Shown here in pieces: positions 5,545 through 39,923 of a stretch of 64,000 nt of DNA. The position numbers were made by a program, and so were the translations under genes. The DNA is from a bacterium (GTDB taxonomy: Bacteria > Hinthialibacterota > Hinthialibacteria > Hinthialibacterales > Hinthialibacteraceae). Every line of letters begins with the position of its first letter. The first letter of the stretch is position 1. A model generated the notes under the pieces. It saw only the letters and a list, made by a program, of their open reading frames with translations, searched no databases and was not told the origin of the DNA. Where the stretch lies: positions 192,001 to 256,000 of the forward strand of contig CAXXSM010000132.1 of assembly GCA_963663405.2 (NCBI GenBank), written 5' to 3'.

Positions 5545-6120
5545 ATGAAGAGTAGAAGAGCGTTCACTTTGATTGAATTGCTTATTGTTGTCGCCATCAT
5601 TGGCATCCTGGCCGCCATCGCCGTGCCGAATTTCCTGCAGGCGCAGATTCGCGCGAAAGTGTCGCGGGTTCAGGGGGATTTTAAAGCGTTGGCGACTGCT
5701 CTTGAGATGTACCATCTCGATAACGGACGTTATATCAGCCGTCAGGGCAACATATCATGGCCTTATCGCTTCTATCCACTCACAACGCCTGTGGCCTATG
5801 TCTCCAATGGCCGCTGGCCGGATCCATTTGCGCCGGATTGGGCTGTTACACCGGATGGCGACCCAGTTAATTATTGTTATGAATCGAAAGGATGGCCTGA
5901 AGCGCCGAGTCCGTACTTAGGCAATAAACTCCGGGGCTCCCCCCACGAATTTCTGCAAGATAAAGAAGACAACTATGAATTCGCGCTCATCTCCGCCGGA
6001 CCGGATACGGATCTGAACGCTGATTCAGGAGCCAAAGGGCAGCCTCAAGATGTGTTCTTTCTTTACGACACGTCTAATGGAACCATTAGCGCCGGTGATA
6101 TTATTCGCTTTGGCCCTTAA
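5545..6120 (+). CDS. prepilin-type N-terminal cleavage/methylation protein (type IV pilin / GspG-like)
   Basis: KSRRA|FTLIELLIVVAIIGILAAIAVPNFL with Glu5; GGAGG RBS. Confidence 0.9.
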   Translation: MKSRRAFTLIELLIVVAIIGILAAIAVPNFLQAQIRAKVSRVQGDFKALATALEMYHLDNGRYISRQGNISWPYRFYPLTTPVAYVSNGRWPDPFAPDWAVTPDGDPVNYCYESKGWPEAPSPYLGNKLRGSPHEFLQDKEDNYEFALISAGPDTDLNADSGAKGQPQDVFFLYDTSNGTISAGDIIRFGP

Positions 6121-9091: not shown

Positions 9092-10744
9092 ATGAAAAAC
9101 ACTTTGAAACACGCGTTGTACATTTTTTGTATTCTCTCAATTTGCATTTCCACCGGACTTGCTCAAAAAGCCGATACGTTTGATCCCCAAAAAGCTGAAA
9201 ATATTTATGCCTTTAAGGTGAAAGATATCAATGGAAAGGAATTCAGCCTCAAAAAATATGAGGAGAAAGCCGTTCTGATCGTGAATACGGCATCCAAATG
9301 CGGATTTACACCCCAATATGAAGATTTAGTCAAGATTTACAAACAATACAAGGATCAAGGATTCCTCGTTTTGGGCGTTCCCGCGAATGAATTCGGGATG
9401 CAGGAACCTGGATCGAATGATGAGATCTTGGAATTCTGTCAACTTACCTATAACGTCGAATTTCCCATGCTGGAGAAAACCGTTGTCAAAGGAGATAACA
9501 TAGCGCCTCTCTTCCAATACTTGACCACAGCGGAAAATCCAGATTTCACGGGGGAGATCAAATGGAATTTTGAAAAATTTCTCATTGACCGCGAGGGGAA
9601 ATTGATCCGCCGTTTTCGAAGCCGTGTCAAACCCACCGATGAAGTCATTACGGGAGCGATCGAAAAAGTAATAAAACAGAAATCGACCAAAGCGATGTGT
9701 TTCCCCGGCGCCGCATGGAAAGAAGCCGTTCCCGAATCACAGGGCGTCGATTCGAAGAAACTGGCGGAAGCCGTTGAATATCTCAAAAATCATGCTCCCT
9801 CTGATGGAATTAAGGAACTGGTCATCATTCGAAACGGTGTTCTAATCTGGAAAGGTTCAAACATTGATAAGGTTCATGGTGTCTGGTCACTCACGAAATC
9901 GTTTACCAGCACGGTTTTGGGACTATTGATCGATGATGGAAAAGCTACGCTGGATACAAAGGCGAAAGAATACATCCCCGCAATGGCGGAGCATTATGGT
10001 GATGTGACGCTTCGACACTTCACGACAATGACATCGGGATATCGCGCGATCGGAGATGAACCGCAGGGCAGCTATCTGCATGGGCCTAGCAAGACGCCGT
10101 TTATTCCGAATCCAAAGCCTCTGTTTTCCCCGCCCGGTTCGAAATTCGCTTATTGGGATTCCGCCATGAACCAGTTCGGTAATGTTCTCACACGCATTGC
10201 GGAGGAATCGATGGAAGACTATTTCAAACGCAAAATCGCCGATCCAATCGGAATGAATTGGGATCAATGGGACTGGGGAGATTTTGGTGAAGTGGACGGC
10301 TTGGTGGTAAATGGCGGTTCGGGCAACAATGGCAATCATATTTTAACCAACGCGCGGGAGCTGGCCCGGTTTGGTCATCTCTTTTTGAATCGTGGGTGTT
10401 GGGACGGGAAACAATTAATCAGCGCGGAATGGGTCGATCAAGTTCATAAAGTCCACGTTCCCATGACACTTCCCTACGGACATCCCGAAAGTGGTATCGA
10501 CGGACCTGGTATGTATGGATTCAATTGGTGGGTGAATGGTGTAAAAAAGGATGGGGAACGGAAATGGCCGGGTGTTCCGGTTTCCACATATGCGGCCAGC
10601 GGCTACAACAACAATGATCTTTTTGTTCTCCCTGATTGGAAGATGGTGGTGGTCCGTCTTGGATTGGATCAAGGTGAATTCCGGATCACCGATGATATTC
10701 ATGCCAATTTTCTGAAAAAAATCGGTGAATCAATTATTGAATAA
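9092..10744 (+). CDS. signal peptide + Cys glutathione peroxidase domain + beta-lactamase-family serine hydrolase fusion
   Basis: VNTASKCGFTPQY, PANEFG.QEPG, IKWNFEKFL, then FPG..W...PESQG, WSLTKS (SxxK), PGSKFAY, ARELARFGHLFL. Confidence 0.85.
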   Translation: MKNTLKHALYIFCILSICISTGLAQKADTFDPQKAENIYAFKVKDINGKEFSLKKYEEKAVLIVNTASKCGFTPQYEDLVKIYKQYKDQGFLVLGVPANEFGMQEPGSNDEILEFCQLTYNVEFPMLEKTVVKGDNIAPLFQYLTTAENPDFTGEIKWNFEKFLIDREGKLIRRFRSRVKPTDEVITGAIEKVIKQKSTKAMCFPGAAWKEAVPESQGVDSKKLAEAVEYLKNHAPSDGIKELVIIRNGVLIWKGSNIDKVHGVWSLTKSFTSTVLGLLIDDGKATLDTKAKEYIPAMAEHYGDVTLRHFTTMTSGYRAIGDEPQGSYLHGPSKTPFIPNPKPLFSPPGSKFAYWDSAMNQFGNVLTRIAEESMEDYFKRKIADPIGMNWDQWDWGDFGEVDGLVVNGGSGNNGNHILTNARELARFGHLFLNRGCWDGKQLISAEWVDQVHKVHVPMTLPYGHPESGIDGPGMYGFNWWVNGVKKDGERKWPGVPVSTYAASGYNNNDLFVLPDWKMVVVRLGLDQGEFRITDDIHANFLKKIGESIIE

Positions 10745-31674: not shown

Positions 31675-32235
31675 TTATTGACCGGGTTGAAAATCAATAT
31701 AAAAAATATCGCCAAAACTCATGATTCCGTTACTGATATCGTATACGCTATCACTGGTCCATGGGATGGCGGACGCCTCCGCGTCCGGTCCAGAACTGCG
31801 GATGAAATACTGCGCCCGTTCCGCCAGGCTGCCACCTGTGAATCCCCAATAATCTCCGGCGTATTCACGGCCCACGTAATCATAGACTCCTTTCCTGGCG
31901 TGGCTCGAGGGATCGCTGTTTTGTTTCAAAAAGAAAGGATCCAAAGGGAGACTGTTGATGTACGTGATAGGAGTCGTCAAGCGGACTTGGCGCATATACC
32001 AGTCCGTATTCCCATCTGGAAGAATGGGGAAGGGAACTTCGTTATTGTCTACTTTGTACATTTCGATTGCGTTCGATAACGCTCGCATATCCGAATAGAC
32101 GCGGCTGACTTTGGCCCGCACTTGAGCGTTTAAAAAGTTCGGAACTGCGATCGCTGCTAAAATGCCGATAATGGCGACGACGATTAATAATTCAATTAGT
32201 GTAAATCCGGTCTTCCATCCCAATACTTTTCCCAT
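31675..32235 (-). CDS. prepilin-type N-terminal cleavage/methylation protein, paralogue of 5545-6120
   Basis: KTG|FTLIELLIVVAIIGILAAIAVPNFLNAQVRAKVSR; LTTPITY, DPF, SSGPD, YDISNG..S.GDI. Confidence 0.9.
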   Translation of the reverse strand: MGKVLGWKTGFTLIELLIVVAIIGILAAIAVPNFLNAQVRAKVSRVYSDMRALSNAIEMYKVDNNEVPFPILPDGNTDWYMRQVRLTTPITYINSLPLDPFFLKQNSDPSSHARKGVYDYVGREYAGDYWGFTGGSLAERAQYFIRSSGPDAEASAIPWTSDSVYDISNGIMSFGDIFYIDFQPGQ

Positions 32236-37157: not shown

Positions 37158-37326
37158 ATGTGATAAACCGAAAAGATTTGATTGGGTTCTTCCAATCAGG
37201 GAAATACCTTGGAATATTTAACTGCTCTGCGTTCATAATCCCTTTCTCAACCCCTCGTCAAAAACGATCGGATATATCCACGTATCAAATGTGTTGATGA
37301 ACGCGGATTCCGTGTTTCGAAAAAAA

Positions 37327-37377
37327 TACAAATGTCGATATTTTGGGTTGACAAATAGACAGATGTCGATATACAAT
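37327..37377 (+). promoter_or_regulatory. sigma70 promoter with two BlaI/CopY-type operators
   Basis: TTGACA (37348-53)-N18-TACAAT (37372-77); TACAAATGTC (37327-36) and GACAGATGTC (37358-67), each followed by GATA. Confidence 0.75.
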
Positions 37378-37525
37378 TCTCTATAACGCGCGTTGGTAGT
37401 AGTAAACAGTTTGACAAAGCAGATCGTTGTAGAAATACGAACGGTTCTTTATCCTAGTGTCTCTCTAAAGAAGTTAGAGATGATCCAGGAGAGATGAAGA
37501 GCCGGGAGAGAAAGAGAAAAACACA

Positions 37526-37933
37526 ATGGTTCCTCAAGAGATTCGGATTCCCGATTCGGAATTGCAGGTGCTGCAAGCGCTTTGGGAAAAGGGGCCTTCA
37601 ACGGCGCGGGAGATCCGAGAGACGATTGACGAAGCCCGTGGTGGGCGTCTCGCCCATGCGACCGTTGTGACCCTAATCCAACGGTTGGAAGAGAAGGGAT
37701 ACATCAAACGGACGGGAAAACAAGTGGGGAAAGCGTTTGTTTACCGCGCCTCGCTCAAACCGGAACGGGCGCAACAGCATTTCGTCCAGAAATATCTGAC
37801 CCGCGCGTTCGGCGGTGATCCCATCCCACTGTTTTCGCAGCTCATTGAAAGCGAAGACCTGAGTTTGGATGAGATCGTTAGGATCCGGGAGATGCTGGAC
37901 GAGAGAGAACGCCGGATGAAGGAGAAGGGCTGA
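37526..37933 (+). CDS. BlaI/MecI/CopY family transcriptional repressor
   Basis: SELQVLQALWEKGP.TARE, TVVTLIQRLEEKG, FGGD. Confidence 0.93.
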   Translation: MVPQEIRIPDSELQVLQALWEKGPSTAREIRETIDEARGGRLAHATVVTLIQRLEEKGYIKRTGKQVGKAFVYRASLKPERAQQHFVQKYLTRAFGGDPIPLFSQLIESEDLSLDEIVRIREMLDERERRMKEKG

Positions 37934-39864
37934 TGGTTGGCGAATGGATCGTTTCGGGGGCGGCGGTTTGGTGGGATTGGATTCTTGCCTGCCTGCCGGG
38001 AGCGCTTGGCTTGTACCTGATTGTTGAATTGGTGATCCGGTACGGGAAAAATATCCCGGCGCGAGCGCGGTATTGCATGCTGTTGCTCGTTTTACTGAAG
38101 TGTGTGATCCCCTGCCCCTGGACCCTTCAAGCGCCACTCCCCGCGCTGGAGGCGCCGGCGCCGATTTTAATGGACTGGGATTCACTGTCCTCGAAACCAA
38201 CGGTTCCCATCGTCAGCGCGAACGTCTCTACTCCCATTGATGTAGAGCCGATCTCTAAAGAGGTGGAACGTGTCACTTCACTGCTTCCAGCGTTTTCGAT
38301 CTTGTTTCTACTCAGCCTCTGCGGGACGATTCTGGCCGCGGCGGCGATTATCGCCAAGATGATTCGCTCGCGGATGCTGATACCGCTTCCACGTGAGGAT
38401 GAAATCGCGGTGGAATGCGCCCGGATCTGTGAGTGTCTGCGAATGAAAATACCCCGGATGCTTGTCTCGCAAACCGGTCAGGGACCGTATGCGGGGGGCT
38501 TGTTTTCACCGTGTTTGATTGTGCCGGCGCATTGGCTTGGACGCCCGGTTGCGCAGCGGCGCCCGGCGCTTGCCCATGAATTGGCTCACATCCGGCGTGG
38601 GGATTATTTCGTCAATTGGCTTCAAGTGACGGTGACGGCGTTCTGTTGGTGGAATCCTCTCATCGCCCGGTTGAATTATTTAATCCGGCTCGAACGTGAG
38701 TTGTGCTGTGATGAATTTGTTCTGCGCACTCTTGATATAGAACCCATCGCGTATTCCCGATTGTTGTTAGACGCGGCGGAAGAACAAGTCCGATTCCGCC
38801 ATTTCAGTTGGACTCCGGCCTTCGCCGATTCCACGCATTCGATCAATCAACGCATAAGGAGAATTCTCATGTTAAAAAAAGTTCGGCCTCGTTTTTCATG
38901 GATAGGATTATTCATTGTTTTGGCTTTCGGTTTTTCATTGTTCTTTGGCTTTCAGATCGCAGCCGCGGTATCGGATCAATCAAAACGGGATTTGGCTTAT
39001 CTCCGTATTGAACTCGCGCAACTGCAATCTATACTGAAAATCGCCTATGAGAATGATTTGGAAATTCCCTCCGAAGAAATCAGCGCCCTGCGGGAAGAAT
39101 TAGGGAAATTGAAAAAGACTGTAGAGATTGAAGGGTATAGGAATCCCAAGAATCCATTGCATCACCCCTTTGATAAACCTTATGAAACGATTCGTGATAT
39201 CACCGCCCATTTTTATGAATCTATACTAGACGCGAAACTGAGAGGCGATCAAGAGAAATTGAACGAATCCAAGAAAAAATTAAAAGCGTTTTATGATGAA
39301 TTGGAACAACAAAAATCGATTGGCCTTTCGATTTATGAAGAAGACAAAAAAGAGGAGAATTACGAACGTAGAGCCTTAGAATACGGTACCTCTCTCGTGT
39401 ATCGCGGGCAGCGGAGTATGCAGAACGCGCTGGAATCCTTCTTTATCGACCACAATACATATCCCGTACCCATCGAGGGGTATCGGCTCGATCAAATGGG
39501 ACTTATCGCACGAATGGAAACGGATGAGAAAGGAAATATGAAGATTACGCCTATAGAAGAAAAGCGGCCTGTAGGATCTCCATTAAAAGAGGGGGAAAGT
39601 ATTATACGGTTGACCACCCCCATCGCTTATCTCGTGGGATTTCCAAAAGATCCCTTTGATGTGGATGGGAAGACATACCGGTATTTCAGTGATGGGCCTT
39701 CGTTTTATATTCTTTCTTCCAAAGGCCCTGACGGGGATATCGATTTCAACGTCAGTGATTATAAAGGAGAACCGAAATCGGATATAATCAATAAATATCA
39801 GTATCAATATGATTTCAAAACAGGGAAGTACAGCTCAGGGGATATTATCCGTATTGGCCCGTGA
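37933..39864 (+). CDS. BlaR1-like M56 metallopeptidase signal transducer with C-terminal pilin-head-like domain
   Basis: TGATG coupling to the repressor; LAHELAHIRRGD, WWNPL, ERELCCDE, RIRRIL; last TM, then LTTPIAY..FPKDPF..SKGPD..GDIIRIGP. Confidence 0.9.
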   Translation: MVGEWIVSGAAVWWDWILACLPGALGLYLIVELVIRYGKNIPARARYCMLLLVLLKCVIPCPWTLQAPLPALEAPAPILMDWDSLSSKPTVPIVSANVSTPIDVEPISKEVERVTSLLPAFSILFLLSLCGTILAAAAIIAKMIRSRMLIPLPREDEIAVECARICECLRMKIPRMLVSQTGQGPYAGGLFSPCLIVPAHWLGRPVAQRRPALAHELAHIRRGDYFVNWLQVTVTAFCWWNPLIARLNYLIRLERELCCDEFVLRTLDIEPIAYSRLLLDAAEEQVRFRHFSWTPAFADSTHSINQRIRRILMLKKVRPRFSWIGLFIVLAFGFSLFFGFQIAAAVSDQSKRDLAYLRIELAQLQSILKIAYENDLEIPSEEISALREELGKLKKTVEIEGYRNPKNPLHHPFDKPYETIRDITAHFYESILDAKLRGDQEKLNESKKKLKAFYDELEQQKSIGLSIYEEDKKEENYERRALEYGTSLVYRGQRSMQNALESFFIDHNTYPVPIEGYRLDQMGLIARMETDEKGNMKITPIEEKRPVGSPLKEGESIIRLTTPIAYLVGFPKDPFDVDGKTYRYFSDGPSFYILSSKGPDGDIDFNVSDYKGEPKSDIINKYQYQYDFKTGKYSSGDIIRIGP

Positions 39865-39891
39865 TGAATGTAAAATTGATGAAAGGATCAG

Positions 39892-39923
39892 AAGCCTCCT
39901 CCAACATTGGGGGAGGCTTTTTT
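39892..39923. terminator. terminator between convergent genes
   Basis: AAGCCTCCTCCA-acat-TGGGGGAGGCTTTTTT. Confidence 0.75.

What the first reader, a model, noticed from the sequence alone, without database searches (positions are those of the whole stretch)
37526..39864. BlaI/BlaR1-type transducer whose extracellular sensor is a pilin head domain
Seen: the M56 protein has an intact HELAH site and a final TM, then a helical linker, then a C-terminal domain (about 39391-39864) that aligns motif by motif with the two prepilin-type proteins in this window. Matches are RSMQNALESFFIDHNTY vs KALATALEMYHLDNGRY / RALSNAIEMYKVDNNEV; RLTTPIAY vs PLTTPVAY / RLTTPITY; PKDPF vs WPDPF / PLDPF; LSSKGPD vs LISAGPD / IRSSGPD; and YDFKTGKYSSGDIIRIGP vs YDTSNGTISAGDIIRFGP. 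The FTLIE hydrophobic helix is missing. Established: BlaR1/MecR1 use a penicillin-binding domain at this position to trigger BlaI cleavage. Inference: a one-step regulatory circuit that reads pilus/pseudopilus assembly state, free pilin subunits, or whatever ligand, phage or cell the pilin heads bind. I know of no description of this architecture.
Basis: partly seen in the sequence, partly recalled or inferred. Interest (0 to 1): 0.85.

Follow-up and report, generated by a model that had tools for sequence, protein, structure and literature searches.

The report
BlaR1-like sensor protease with pseudopilin head
A BlaI repressor gene is followed by a BlaR1-type membrane protease whose outward-facing sensor is not a penicillin-binding domain but the globular head of a type II secretion pseudopilin without its membrane helix, a recurrent yet apparently undescribed way of wiring this signalling switch.

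Summary
blaI (37526-37933) overlaps by one base an intact 643-aa M56 gene (37933-39864). That protein has four hydrophobic segments, HELAH and ExxxD at BlaR1 spacing, a ~140-residue helical linker and a C-terminal domain homologous to pilin heads. The head is GspG-type. Pfam T2SSG passes its cut-off in 5 of 8 other fusion proteins, though not in the window protein itself. A 44-sequence profile hits eight solved GspG-type chains at E 1e-5 to 1e-4. The AlphaFold model has pLDDT 93, and its best Foldseek matches are GspG-type but weak. No prepilin leader or FTLIE helix is present.

The fusion is real. An ortholog in a sister genus has the same architecture. A contig of a ~95%-identical strain from another study bridges the junctions with no net frame change. 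Twenty-two further M56-head proteins exist in public data.

The head comes from a pilin-like family of about 125 copies in this genome. It is also attached to redoxins, a LolA-like domain, HEAT repeats and ECF sigma factors. Thirteen other M56 proteins here carry Kelch, WD40, PDZ-S41, DUF4097, SHOCT-like or unidentified C-terminal regions.

This is a new sensor module on a known modular scaffold. Only autoregulation is visible.

The parts
37325..37338 (+). Operator-like dyad 1 (AATACAAATGTCGA), upstream of the -35 box
   Evidence: Read from the sequence. A dyad of the form TCGAC-N4-GTCGA stands at the same place in 5 orthologous or related blaI promoters from other genomes, and in the paralogous promoter on contig C109 with changed half-sites. 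Its function as a BlaI site is inferred.
37348..37377 (+). Promoter-like TTGACA (37348-37353), operator-like dyad 2 TAGACAGATGTCGA (37356-37369) and TATACAAT (37370-37377)
   Evidence: Sequence. The same layout of -35 box, dyad and -10 box is conserved in 6 of 6 compared promoters. The pattern AC-N3-TGTCGATAT occurs 10 times in the genome, and only these two sites are paired.
37526..37933 (+). blaI-type winged-helix repressor, 135 aa
   Evidence: PF03965 Penicillinase_R at 90.4 bits against a cut-off of 22.6. NCBIfam CopY/TcrY and BlaI models match below their cut-offs. The stop overlaps the M56 ATG by one base.
37933..38958 (+). M56 transmembrane zinc-protease module (residues 1-342): four hydrophobic segments, HELAH 215-219, ELCCD 256-260, conserved Phe297
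   Evidence: PF05569 at 102.9 bits. Hydropathy and motifs. Spacings of H+41 to Glu, H+45 to Asp and H+82 to Phe equal those of S. aureus BlaR1 (H201, E242, D246, F284) as given in PMC9834060 (passages read).
38959..39387 (+). Extracytoplasmic helical linker or stalk (residues 343-485), rich in E, K and L and poorly conserved
   Evidence: Composition. Low conservation and length variation between orthologs. Helices appear only in the low-confidence single-sequence model. A related strain carries +1 at 39164 and -1 at 39180, which restores the frame.
39388..39861 (+). GspG-type pseudopilin globular head (residues 486-643) without leader or hydrophobic helix; it carries an insertion of about 23 residues relative to the ortholog
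   Evidence: BLASTP and phmmer matches to pilins. T2SSG passes its cut-off in orthologs, but scores only 11.2 bits here. The profile hits GspG, EpsG and PulG chains at E 1.3e-5 to 1.4e-4. The AF2 model has pLDDT 93.1. The best Foldseek rows are EpsG/PulG at E 0.12 or weaker.
5545..6120 (+). Comparator only: prepilin-type protein (191 aa) of the expanded family
   Evidence: Matches N_methyl and the start of T2SSG. BLASTP to the sensor head gives 6e-8.
31675..32235 (-). Comparator only: prepilin-type protein (186 aa) of the expanded family
   Evidence: Matches N_methyl and the start of T2SSG. BLASTP to the sensor head gives 8e-7.

Best explanation
This is a two-gene proteolytic signalling switch of the BlaI/BlaR1 kind in which the input domain has been exchanged.

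The membrane protein keeps the complete M56 gluzincin module, with the active site on the cytoplasmic side. After its fourth membrane segment it carries a helical stalk and, in the periplasm, the globular head of a GspG-type pseudopilin. This head lacks the leader and the hydrophobic helix, so it can be neither processed by prepilin peptidase nor built into a filament.

Inferred mechanism, by analogy with BlaR1: occupancy of the head by a periplasmic partner changes the stalk and membrane helices. That activates the protease, which cleaves the BlaI dimer. Cleavage frees the two operator dyads that bracket the -35 box of the operon's own promoter, and probably other promoters not yet found.

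Shown: the architecture, intact motifs, homology of the head, recurrence of the fusion, and a conserved promoter layout.

Inferred: topology, proteolysis of BlaI, that the head is the input, and the nature of the partner. My leaning is a protein of the pilin/pseudopilin world, at roughly 45% within this explanation.
For: -
- Motif spacing is identical to BlaR1 (PMC9834060 passages).
- Hydropathy gives four segments, and the 182-residue HELAH loop is K+R rich (27 against 17 D+E). This places the C-terminus outside, as in BlaR1.
- Head homology rests. The model has pLDDT 93.1 and its best Foldseek rows are GspG-type.
- Genome G010, a different genus of the same family, has the same blaI plus M56-stalk-head architecture at 39% identity over residues 1-643.
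- A second copy lies on contig C109.
- Of the 150 best library representatives, 8 besides the query are M56 proteins with a head.
- Of 62 long head-bearing proteins, 14 besides the query carry PF05569 and an HExxH motif ahead of the head.
- Heads of the three M56 proteins form one clade, support 95/80.
- A 5,876-base contig from another study, with 107 substitutions, covers 37727-39900. It therefore bridges both junctions, and its two indels cancel.
- The head also serves as the outer part of ECF sigma fusion proteins, which fits an input role.
- The operator and promoter layout is conserved in 6 of 6 promoters.
Against: - The window protein's own T2SSG score is 11.2 bits, below the cut-off of 21.
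- Nothing shows that the head receives a signal. It is also fused to redoxins, a LolA-like domain, HEAT repeats and DUF3352 proteins, so it could be a docking or anchoring module.
- No regulon was found. Paired dyads occur only at the operon's own promoter. In G010 the 14-mer with up to 2 mismatches is no more frequent than the control: 51 matches against 74.
- No type IV filament genes lie beside the operon in the window, and there is no conserved synteny with G010.
- The full fusion was seen in only 2 of the 35 genomes of the phylum that are held. The closest M56 relatives in G007 and G004 carry other, unidentified C-terminal regions.
Confidence: 0.7

Rival explanations
1. The architecture and switch are the same, but the head binds something other than a pilin. 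Candidates are a glycan, a metal such as calcium, a small molecule, or a non-pilin periplasmic or secreted protein. The pilin ancestry would then be only the evolutionary source of a convenient binding fold.
For: The family is hugely diversified here. Of 138 ORFs matching the head profile, 125 carry a prepilin motif, which suggests many specificities. The operon is not linked to a filament machine. The other M56 sensors of the genome use generic binding folds such as Kelch, WD40 and PDZ. The window head carries a private insertion of about 23 residues, modelled as a hairpin.
Against: The sensor heads stay close to one conserved pilin clade. That clade has 20 rows and support of 100/99, and the fused heads sit beside it. 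Motifs shared with all pilins are retained. One metagenomic M56 protein combines the head with secretin N-terminal and STN domains, which points to the secretion and pilus world.
Confidence: 0.3
2. The head is not an input. It is a docking module that places the protein, like the redoxins and other carriers of the same module, at a pseudopilus or pilin array. The protease would then be triggered by something else, or would act constitutively.
For: The same module ends enzymes that need no signal input: DUF2092-Redoxin-head and AhpC/TSA-like-head proteins. Atypical BlaR proteins without any sensor domain are reported for M. tuberculosis, M. abscessus and P. aeruginosa (preprint 10.64898/2026.08.03.742534, passages read).
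Against: In BlaR1 the domain at this position is the sensor (PMC9834060). The module also ends ECF sigma fusion proteins that have membrane segments between sigma and head. Related M56 cores exchange this position for other domains, as expected for an input slot.
Confidence: 0.15
3. The fusion is an assembly or gene-calling artefact: two genes joined by an error in a draft genome that has many indel errors.
For: The assembly shows several genes split into adjacent frames: Fe-ADH, Zn-ADH, a PALP enzyme, a helicase and the DUF2092/Redoxin-head gene. The second copy on C109 is spread over four frames.
Against: Errors break frames rather than join them. The same single ORF is present in G010, an assembly of 8 contigs, and in 22 other public proteins. 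A Logan contig of a run that may be the source matches with 0 differences. A contig from another study bridges both junctions with no net frame change.
Confidence: 0.02
4. It is an ordinary beta-lactam sensor of the BlaR1/MecR1 type.
For: The sources give generic names such as 'beta-lactamase regulating signal transducer with metallopeptidase domain'. Beta-lactamase-fold genes occur elsewhere in the genome and in the window.
Against: No transpeptidase or penicillin-binding domain is found. NCBIfam blaR1_generic scores 73 bits against a cut-off of 400 and aligns only to positions 12-340 of 585. No beta-lactamase gene is adjacent.
Confidence: 0.02

Closest known systems
BlaR1-BlaI and MecR1-MecI of Staphylococcus aureus and Bacillus licheniformis
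   Same: A repressor gene sits next to an M56 membrane gluzincin. Four membrane segments are present, with HEXXH and EXXXD at identical spacing and a conserved Phe at the position of the autocleavage P1' residue. There is an outer loop between segments 2 and 3, and an extracytoplasmic C-terminal domain. Dyad operators overlap the promoter.
   Different: The sensor is a pseudopilin head on a stalk of about 140 residues, instead of an acylatable penicillin-binding domain with SXXK. No resistance gene is adjacent. The gene order is repressor first, with overlapping stop and start.
Atypical BlaIR pairs without a sensor domain (M. tuberculosis and M. abscessus BlaR; P. aeruginosa PvmSR, preprint 10.64898/2026.08.03.742534, passages read)
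   Same: These are M56 plus BlaI-family pairs that do not sense beta-lactams.
   Different: Those proteins end after the protease module. This one carries a folded extracytoplasmic domain.
Other modular M56 proteins (Kelch, WD40, PDZ-S41 and DUF4097 in this genome; LRR, HEAT, Big_5, M23 and Secretin clusters in the ESM Atlas)
   Same: The same scaffold is used with an exchangeable C-terminal module.
   Different: The module here is derived from a filament subunit. I found no paper describing it.
GspG/PulG/EpsG/XcpT major pseudopilins of type II secretion
   Same: The globular domain is homologous over the helix end, the LTTPxAY/DPF region and the SxGPD strand region. The best structural rows are GspG-type.
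   Different: There is no leader, no Gly-Phe-Thr-Leu-Ile-Glu segment and no hydrophobic helix. The C-terminal extension ending in SxGDIIxxGP is longer. The domain sits at the end of a 643-aa membrane protein.
Pilin-like modules in non-pilin proteins, such as the C-terminal part of PilC/PilY1 tip adhesins (PMC13533445; listing and abstract only)
   Same: A non-pilin protein carries a pilin-like part that is said to engage minor pilins (abstract).
   Different: That case concerns filament-tip assembly, not transcriptional signalling. I did not read the paper's text and tested no structural relation.

Membership tests
Peptidase M56 (BlaR1-type signal-transducing gluzincins) | Match to PF05569 above the gathering score | tested here: met
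   102.9 bits against 31, residues 24-310 on profile positions 11-295 of 296.
Peptidase M56 (BlaR1-type signal-transducing gluzincins) | HEXXH and EXXXD zinc motifs at BlaR1 spacing | tested here: met
   H215ELAH and E256LCCD260. Glu lies at H+41 and Asp at H+45, as for H201/E242/D246 in PMC9834060.
Peptidase M56 (BlaR1-type signal-transducing gluzincins) | Four membrane segments, with the protease loop inside and the C-terminal domain outside | tested here: inconclusive
   Four hydropathy peaks and the charge bias fit this topology. No topology predictor or experiment was used.
Peptidase M56 (BlaR1-type signal-transducing gluzincins) | Cleavage of the partner repressor | not testable with these tools
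   This needs biochemistry.
BlaR1/MecR1 beta-lactam sensors in the strict sense | C-terminal penicillin-binding (class D beta-lactamase-like, SXXK) sensor domain | tested here: not met
   There is no transpeptidase or beta-lactamase Pfam match. blaR1_generic scores 73 bits against a cut-off of 400 and covers only positions 12-340 of 585. MecR1 scores 13.8 against 1200.
BlaI/MecI/CopY repressors | Penicillinase_R winged-helix domain, encoded beside the M56 gene | tested here: met
   PF03965 at 90.4 bits against 22.6. The genes overlap by one base.
BlaI/MecI/CopY repressors | Dyad operators at the regulated promoter | tested here: inconclusive
   Two dyads bracket the -35 box and are conserved in 6 of 6 promoters compared. 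Binding was not tested.
Type II secretion major pseudopilin GspG (PF08334 T2SSG globular domain) | Match to PF08334 above the gathering score | tested here: inconclusive
   The window protein scores 11.2 bits against 21. Among the other fusion proteins, P0002 scores 21.2, P0003 24.9, P0007 25.7, P0013 22.4 and P0061 26.5; P0004 and P0031 fall below the cut-off, and P0006 gave no T2SSG row at E<=0.01. The family profile hits 8 GspG-type PDB sequences at E 1.3e-5 to 1.4e-4.
Type II secretion major pseudopilin GspG (PF08334 T2SSG globular domain) | Pseudopilin fold | tested here: inconclusive
   The model has pLDDT 93.1 and pTM 0.85. Six of the top 10 Foldseek rows are EpsG-type major pseudopilin chains from Vibrio and two are PilW, but the best E-value is 0.12 and TM by target is 0.43-0.57. 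VIA-align was not accepted.
Type IV pilins and pseudopilins (filament subunits) | Prepilin leader with the N-methylation motif and hydrophobic N-terminal helix (PF07963) | tested here: not met
   There is no N_methyl match and no FTLIE-type motif. The domain starts at residue 486 of a membrane protein. It is therefore not a pilin.

The most novel reading that the evidence does not exclude
Helix-less pseudopilin heads may form a family of periplasmic docking and recognition modules that plug other proteins into the pilin world of these bacteria. In the M56 and ECF sigma fusions the head would contact membrane-anchored pilin or pseudopilin heads, or a filament. Transcription would then follow the supply or assembly state of type IV filament subunits. 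That would be a one-step feedback from filament subunit pool to gene expression that has not been described. The redoxin and LolA-like fusions would use the same contact to act on pilins.
Probability: 0.3. Interest if true: 0.8.

Novelty: new variant of a known kind. Interest (0 to 1): 0.55.

Why it matters
BlaR1-type switches are known almost only as antibiotic sensors, yet tens of thousands of M56 proteins exist: 90,138 library representatives matched at E<=1e-3. Most of them have unknown inputs. This case gives a defined, foldable and recurrent input domain with obvious candidate partners, namely the pilin-like proteins of the same genome. That makes the question of what non-antibiotic BlaR-like systems sense directly testable.

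It also shows that the globular part of a filament subunit can be freed from its polymerising helix and reused as a soluble periplasmic module on sensors and enzymes. That bears on the unexplained expansion of pilin-like genes in several poorly studied phyla.

Tried and rejected
- The search for homologous proteins on residues 480-643 at near length found only the query itself. The word index was too insensitive. Searching the alignment with lengths 'longer' worked.
- The search for related loci in genome contigs used only the HELAH pattern. It returned 80 generic M56 loci from many phyla, none informative for the fusion or for the taxon.
- The single-sequence AlphaFold model of the whole protein was unusable, with pLDDT 39.6.
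- Complex prediction, sensor head against the closest pilin head, was not available. No statement on binding can be made.
- The Atlas would not take the window sequence. The stored homologue P0003 gave only generic M56 neighbours.
- Regulon scans led nowhere. The consensus dyad with up to 2 mismatches gave 685 sites and 3 pairs, none convincing, and missed the operon's own promoter. The stricter right-half patterns found paired sites only at the two blaI promoters. In G010 the scan gave 2 exact sites, both at the own promoter, and 3 one-mismatch sites that I did not inspect. The total was no higher than the control.
- No RNA holder was listed for the stretch.
- The search of earlier findings returned nothing for this genome.
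- The listing of cluster members gave no organism names, so I did not determine the phylum's name.
- Neighbourhoods of the three closest pilins (C143, C89, C25) showed no secretion or pilus genes.
- Supplementary files of papers were not consulted.
Full report
**What is there.** The window is G000:C132:192001-256000 of an 8.44-Mb draft genome in 170 contigs, 82% complete. A 135-aa gene at 37526-37933 is followed, with a one-base overlap of stop and start, by a 643-aa gene at 37933-39864. Pfam assigns the first to Penicillinase_R (90.4 bits, cut-off 22.6). It assigns residues 24-310 of the second to Peptidase_M56 (102.9 bits, cut-off 31), and nothing significant to the last 300 residues. NCBIfam's BlaR1 model aligns only to its positions 12-340 of 585 and scores 73 bits against a cut-off of 400. 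The penicillin-binding half is therefore absent.

**The M56 module.** Hydropathy gives four segments at 17-35, 41-59, 123-141 and 324-342. The 182-residue loop between the third and fourth segment holds H215ELAH and E256LCCD260 and is rich in Lys and Arg (27, against 17 Asp and Glu). The distances from the first His to the Glu (41), the Asp (45) and a conserved Phe297 (82) equal those of H201, E242, D246 and F284 in S. aureus BlaR1, as given in the cryo-EM paper PMC9834060 (passages read). By analogy the HELAH loop is cytoplasmic, and residues 60-122 and 343-643 are outside. This topology is inferred.

**The C-terminal domain.** BLASTP of the last 157 residues gives 6e-8 and 8e-7 against the two prepilin-type proteins of the window. 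A phmmer search of all 21,991 stop-to-stop ORFs of at least 90 aa finds closer relatives elsewhere in the genome. These include true pilins matched over residues 7-157, the best being C143:4764-5393 at E 3.1e-17.

Pfam's T2SSG model (the GspG globular domain) scores only 11.2 bits on the window protein. It passes its cut-off of 21 on five relatives with the same architecture: 21.2, 24.9, 25.7, 22.4 and 26.5 bits. The window copy has an extra insertion of about 23 residues. A profile of 44 head sequences (A3) finds eight distinct PDB sequences at E 1.3e-5 to 1.4e-4, and all eight are GspG/EpsG/PulG-type major pseudopilins. Two geopilin chains follow at E 0.19 and above.

With that alignment AlphaFold gives a confident model, pLDDT 93.1 and pTM 0.85. 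It shows a long helix followed by a small sheet and a C-terminal strand. Foldseek ranks EpsG-type major pseudopilin chains from Vibrio first, but with weak E-values of 0.12 and above. The more sensitive aligner was not available.

The protein has no N_methyl match and no FTLIE-type segment. It is a pseudopilin head, not a pilin.

**Is the fusion real?** Several lines of evidence say yes.
- A search of 41 genomes with the whole protein gave one other full-length match. G010, a different genus of the same family assembled in 8 contigs, shows 39% identity over residues 1-643. Its locus has blaI overlapping an M56-stalk-head gene.
- The nearest M56 cores in G007 and G004 (41% and 35% identity over residues about 10-355) carry different C-terminal regions that Pfam does not recognise. 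G008's copy is cut by a contig end.
- A second blaI plus M56-stalk-head copy lies on contig C109, but the M56 part is spread over four frames. Several other genes of this assembly are split in the same way, so I cannot say whether that copy is a pseudogene or an assembly error.
- A profile of the two full-length proteins was run against 1.84 billion representatives and gave 90,138 matches at E<=1e-3. Among the best 150, a local head profile found the head in 11 proteins. Nine of these are M56 proteins, counting the query. Pfam confirmed M56 in all 8 others.
- Searching the head alignment against longer proteins gave 62 hits at E<=1e-5 among 7,999 scored candidates. Fifteen of them, counting the query, carry PF05569 in the precomputed annotation. 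All 14 others have an HExxH motif ahead of one or more head segments. No lengths coincide between the two sets, so 22 further M56-head proteins are on record. Three bear the NCBI label Candidatus Sumerlaeota, and one of these is named 'type II secretion system protein GspG'.
- Logan contigs were laid on 37400-39900. One run, possibly the source, matches with no difference. A run from another study holds a 5,876-base contig covering 37727-39900 with 107 substitutions and two indels, +1 at 39164 and -1 at 39180, that restore the frame within the stalk.

**Where the head comes from.** A head profile built from ten genome copies matches 138 ORFs at E<=1e-3. The ten seeds match by construction. Of the 138, 125 have a prepilin motif, nearly always FTLIELLIVVAIIGILAAIAVPNF. 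Six are long non-pilin proteins, and seven are short ORFs without a detected motif.

The six non-pilin carriers are:
- the M56 protein of the window;
- the C109 copy;
- two tandem AhpC/TSA-like proteins on C22;
- a 568-aa protein on C92;
- a Redoxin-head ORF just upstream of the window. Together with the preceding DUF2092 ORF, this looks like one gene split by a frame error.

In a tree of 44 heads the three M56 heads form one clade (95/80). All fused heads lie beside one well-supported pilin clade of 20 rows (100/99), which was found in 16 genomes of this family and its order. A single origin of the fused forms is neither shown nor excluded. The three members of that pilin clade in this genome have no secretion or pilus genes next to them.

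The genome does encode filament machinery: 7 T2SSE ATPase matches, 2 prepilin peptidases and 8 secretin matches. One such cluster lies about 6-14 kb from the C109 copy. I regard that as possibly coincidental.

**The module elsewhere.** Outside M56, the head ends proteins with DUF2092 plus Redoxin, HEAT repeats and DUF3352. It also ends two ECF sigma-factor fusions, in which hydrophobic segments separate the sigma part from the head. One M56 protein combines the head with Secretin_N, STN and GspD-N0 domains. Others combine it with Redoxin, or with LysM plus a thioredoxin-like domain.

Conversely, the 13 other M56 proteins of this genome carry Kelch propellers (3), WD40, PDZ plus S41 peptidase, DUF4097, a SHOCT-like segment, or nothing recognisable. 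Atlas clusters show M56 with LRR, HEAT, Big_5, M23 or Secretin. M56 is thus a modular sensor scaffold, and the pseudopilin head is a mobile periplasmic module. Their combination is one cell of a matrix, but a recurrent one.

**Regulation.** Upstream of blaI there is a TTGACA box (37348-37353) and TATACAAT (37370-37377). Two 14-nt dyads of the type TCGAC-N4-GTCGA stand at 37325-37338 and 37356-37369. The same arrangement is present in G010, G007, G004 and G008. It is also present in the C109 paralog, where the half-sites are changed to TCGGC/GCCGA. That change is what one would expect if the two paralogous repressors are insulated from each other.

This supports autoregulation, although binding is inferred. 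Scans for further paired sites found none. The neighbours differ between G000 and G010. In the window they are a periplasmic binding protein and a PAS-HisKA protein upstream, and a convergent 2-oxoacid:ferredoxin oxidoreductase operon downstream.

**How it most likely works.** By analogy with BlaR1, events at the outer domain are transmitted through the membrane helices to the cytoplasmic gluzincin, which cleaves BlaI (PMC9834060: abstract and passages).

Here the outer domain is a pseudopilin head on a stalk of about 140 residues. I commit to that switch with the head as the input (0.7). What the head binds is open.
- its nearness to one conserved pilin clade;
- its co-occurrence with secretin domains in one relative;
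- its use on enzymes that could act on pilins;
- the published idea of pilin-like parts docking onto minor pilins (PMC13533445, abstract only).

However, no binding test could be run, and a generic ligand-binding or docking role remains a serious rival.

**Novelty.** Three full-text searches found no paper describing an M56 or BlaR1-like protein with a pilin or pseudopilin domain. The sources name these proteins generically. Atypical BlaIR systems in print lack a sensor domain altogether (preprint 10.64898/2026.08.03.742534, passages read). A preprint on Bacteroides TonB homologs mentions M56, but I saw only its listing. I rate this a new variant of a known kind. The phylum holds only 35 genomes in the collection searched, and I did not determine its name.

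Noticed in passing
whole genome G000; for example window 5545-6120 and 31675-32235: About 125 pilin-like genes of roughly 190-280 aa share an almost invariant N-terminus (FTLIELLIVVAIIGILAAIAVPNF) but have divergent heads. They are scattered as single genes. The relatives examined also gave many first-look candidates, 11-128 per genome.
   Followed up: partly
G000:C109:23807-26167 (L147): A second blaI plus M56-stalk-head copy has its M56 part spread over four reading frames. Its promoter dyads are TCGGC-N4-GCCGA instead of TCGAC-N4-GTCGA. A secretin, a T2SSE ATPase and a prepilin peptidase lie 6-14 kb upstream on the other strand.
   Followed up: partly
G000 contigs C25, C132, C143 (L143, L146, L141): Several ordinary genes are split into adjacent or overlapping ORFs: Fe-ADH, Zn-ADH, a PALP enzyme, a DEAD helicase and DUF2092/Redoxin-head. 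This suggests indel errors in the assembly.
   Followed up: no
G000:C22:37663-44276 (L144:4745-11276): Three tandem paralogs have an AhpC/TSA-like domain. Two of them end in a pseudopilin head. They lie directly after selA, a 2-hydroxyglutaryl-CoA dehydratase-like gene and a selenophosphate-synthetase-like AIRS gene fused to a CMD domain.
   Followed up: no
proteins P0194 (641 aa) and P0195 (677 aa): These are ECF sigma-70 domains fused through hydrophobic segments to a C-terminal pseudopilin head. They represent a second kind of signalling protein that uses this module.
   Followed up: partly
protein P0013 (1165 aa); Atlas cluster row 6: P0013 is an M56 protein combined with Secretin_N, a pseudopilin head and STN/GspD-N0 domains. 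Separately, an Atlas cluster of 51 M56 proteins, most commonly from Verrucomicrobiota, has the Secretin family on 57% of its members.
   Followed up: no
proteins P0151-P0155, P0158, P0160, P0172, P0184 and others (about 1,040-1,224 aa): A longer class of M56 proteins has a head directly after the last membrane segment. A second head appears to be interrupted by an insertion of about 350-400 residues, with its last strand at the very C-terminus.
   Followed up: no
window 9092-10741 (+): A single 550-aa ORF combines a glutathione peroxidase domain (residues 38-144) with a beta-lactamase-fold domain (residues 256-523).
   Followed up: no
G000:C89:12863-14531 (L142:9864-11532): A DarT-like ssDNA ADP-ribosyltransferase gene is followed by a Macro-domain gene, which looks like a DarTG toxin-antitoxin pair.
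   Followed up: no
G000:C132:84158-87481 (L148): A 1,108-aa M56 protein carries a YscJ/FliF C-terminal-like segment, a PDZ domain and an S41 peptidase domain. It is a membrane protease fused to a periplasmic protease.
   Followed up: no
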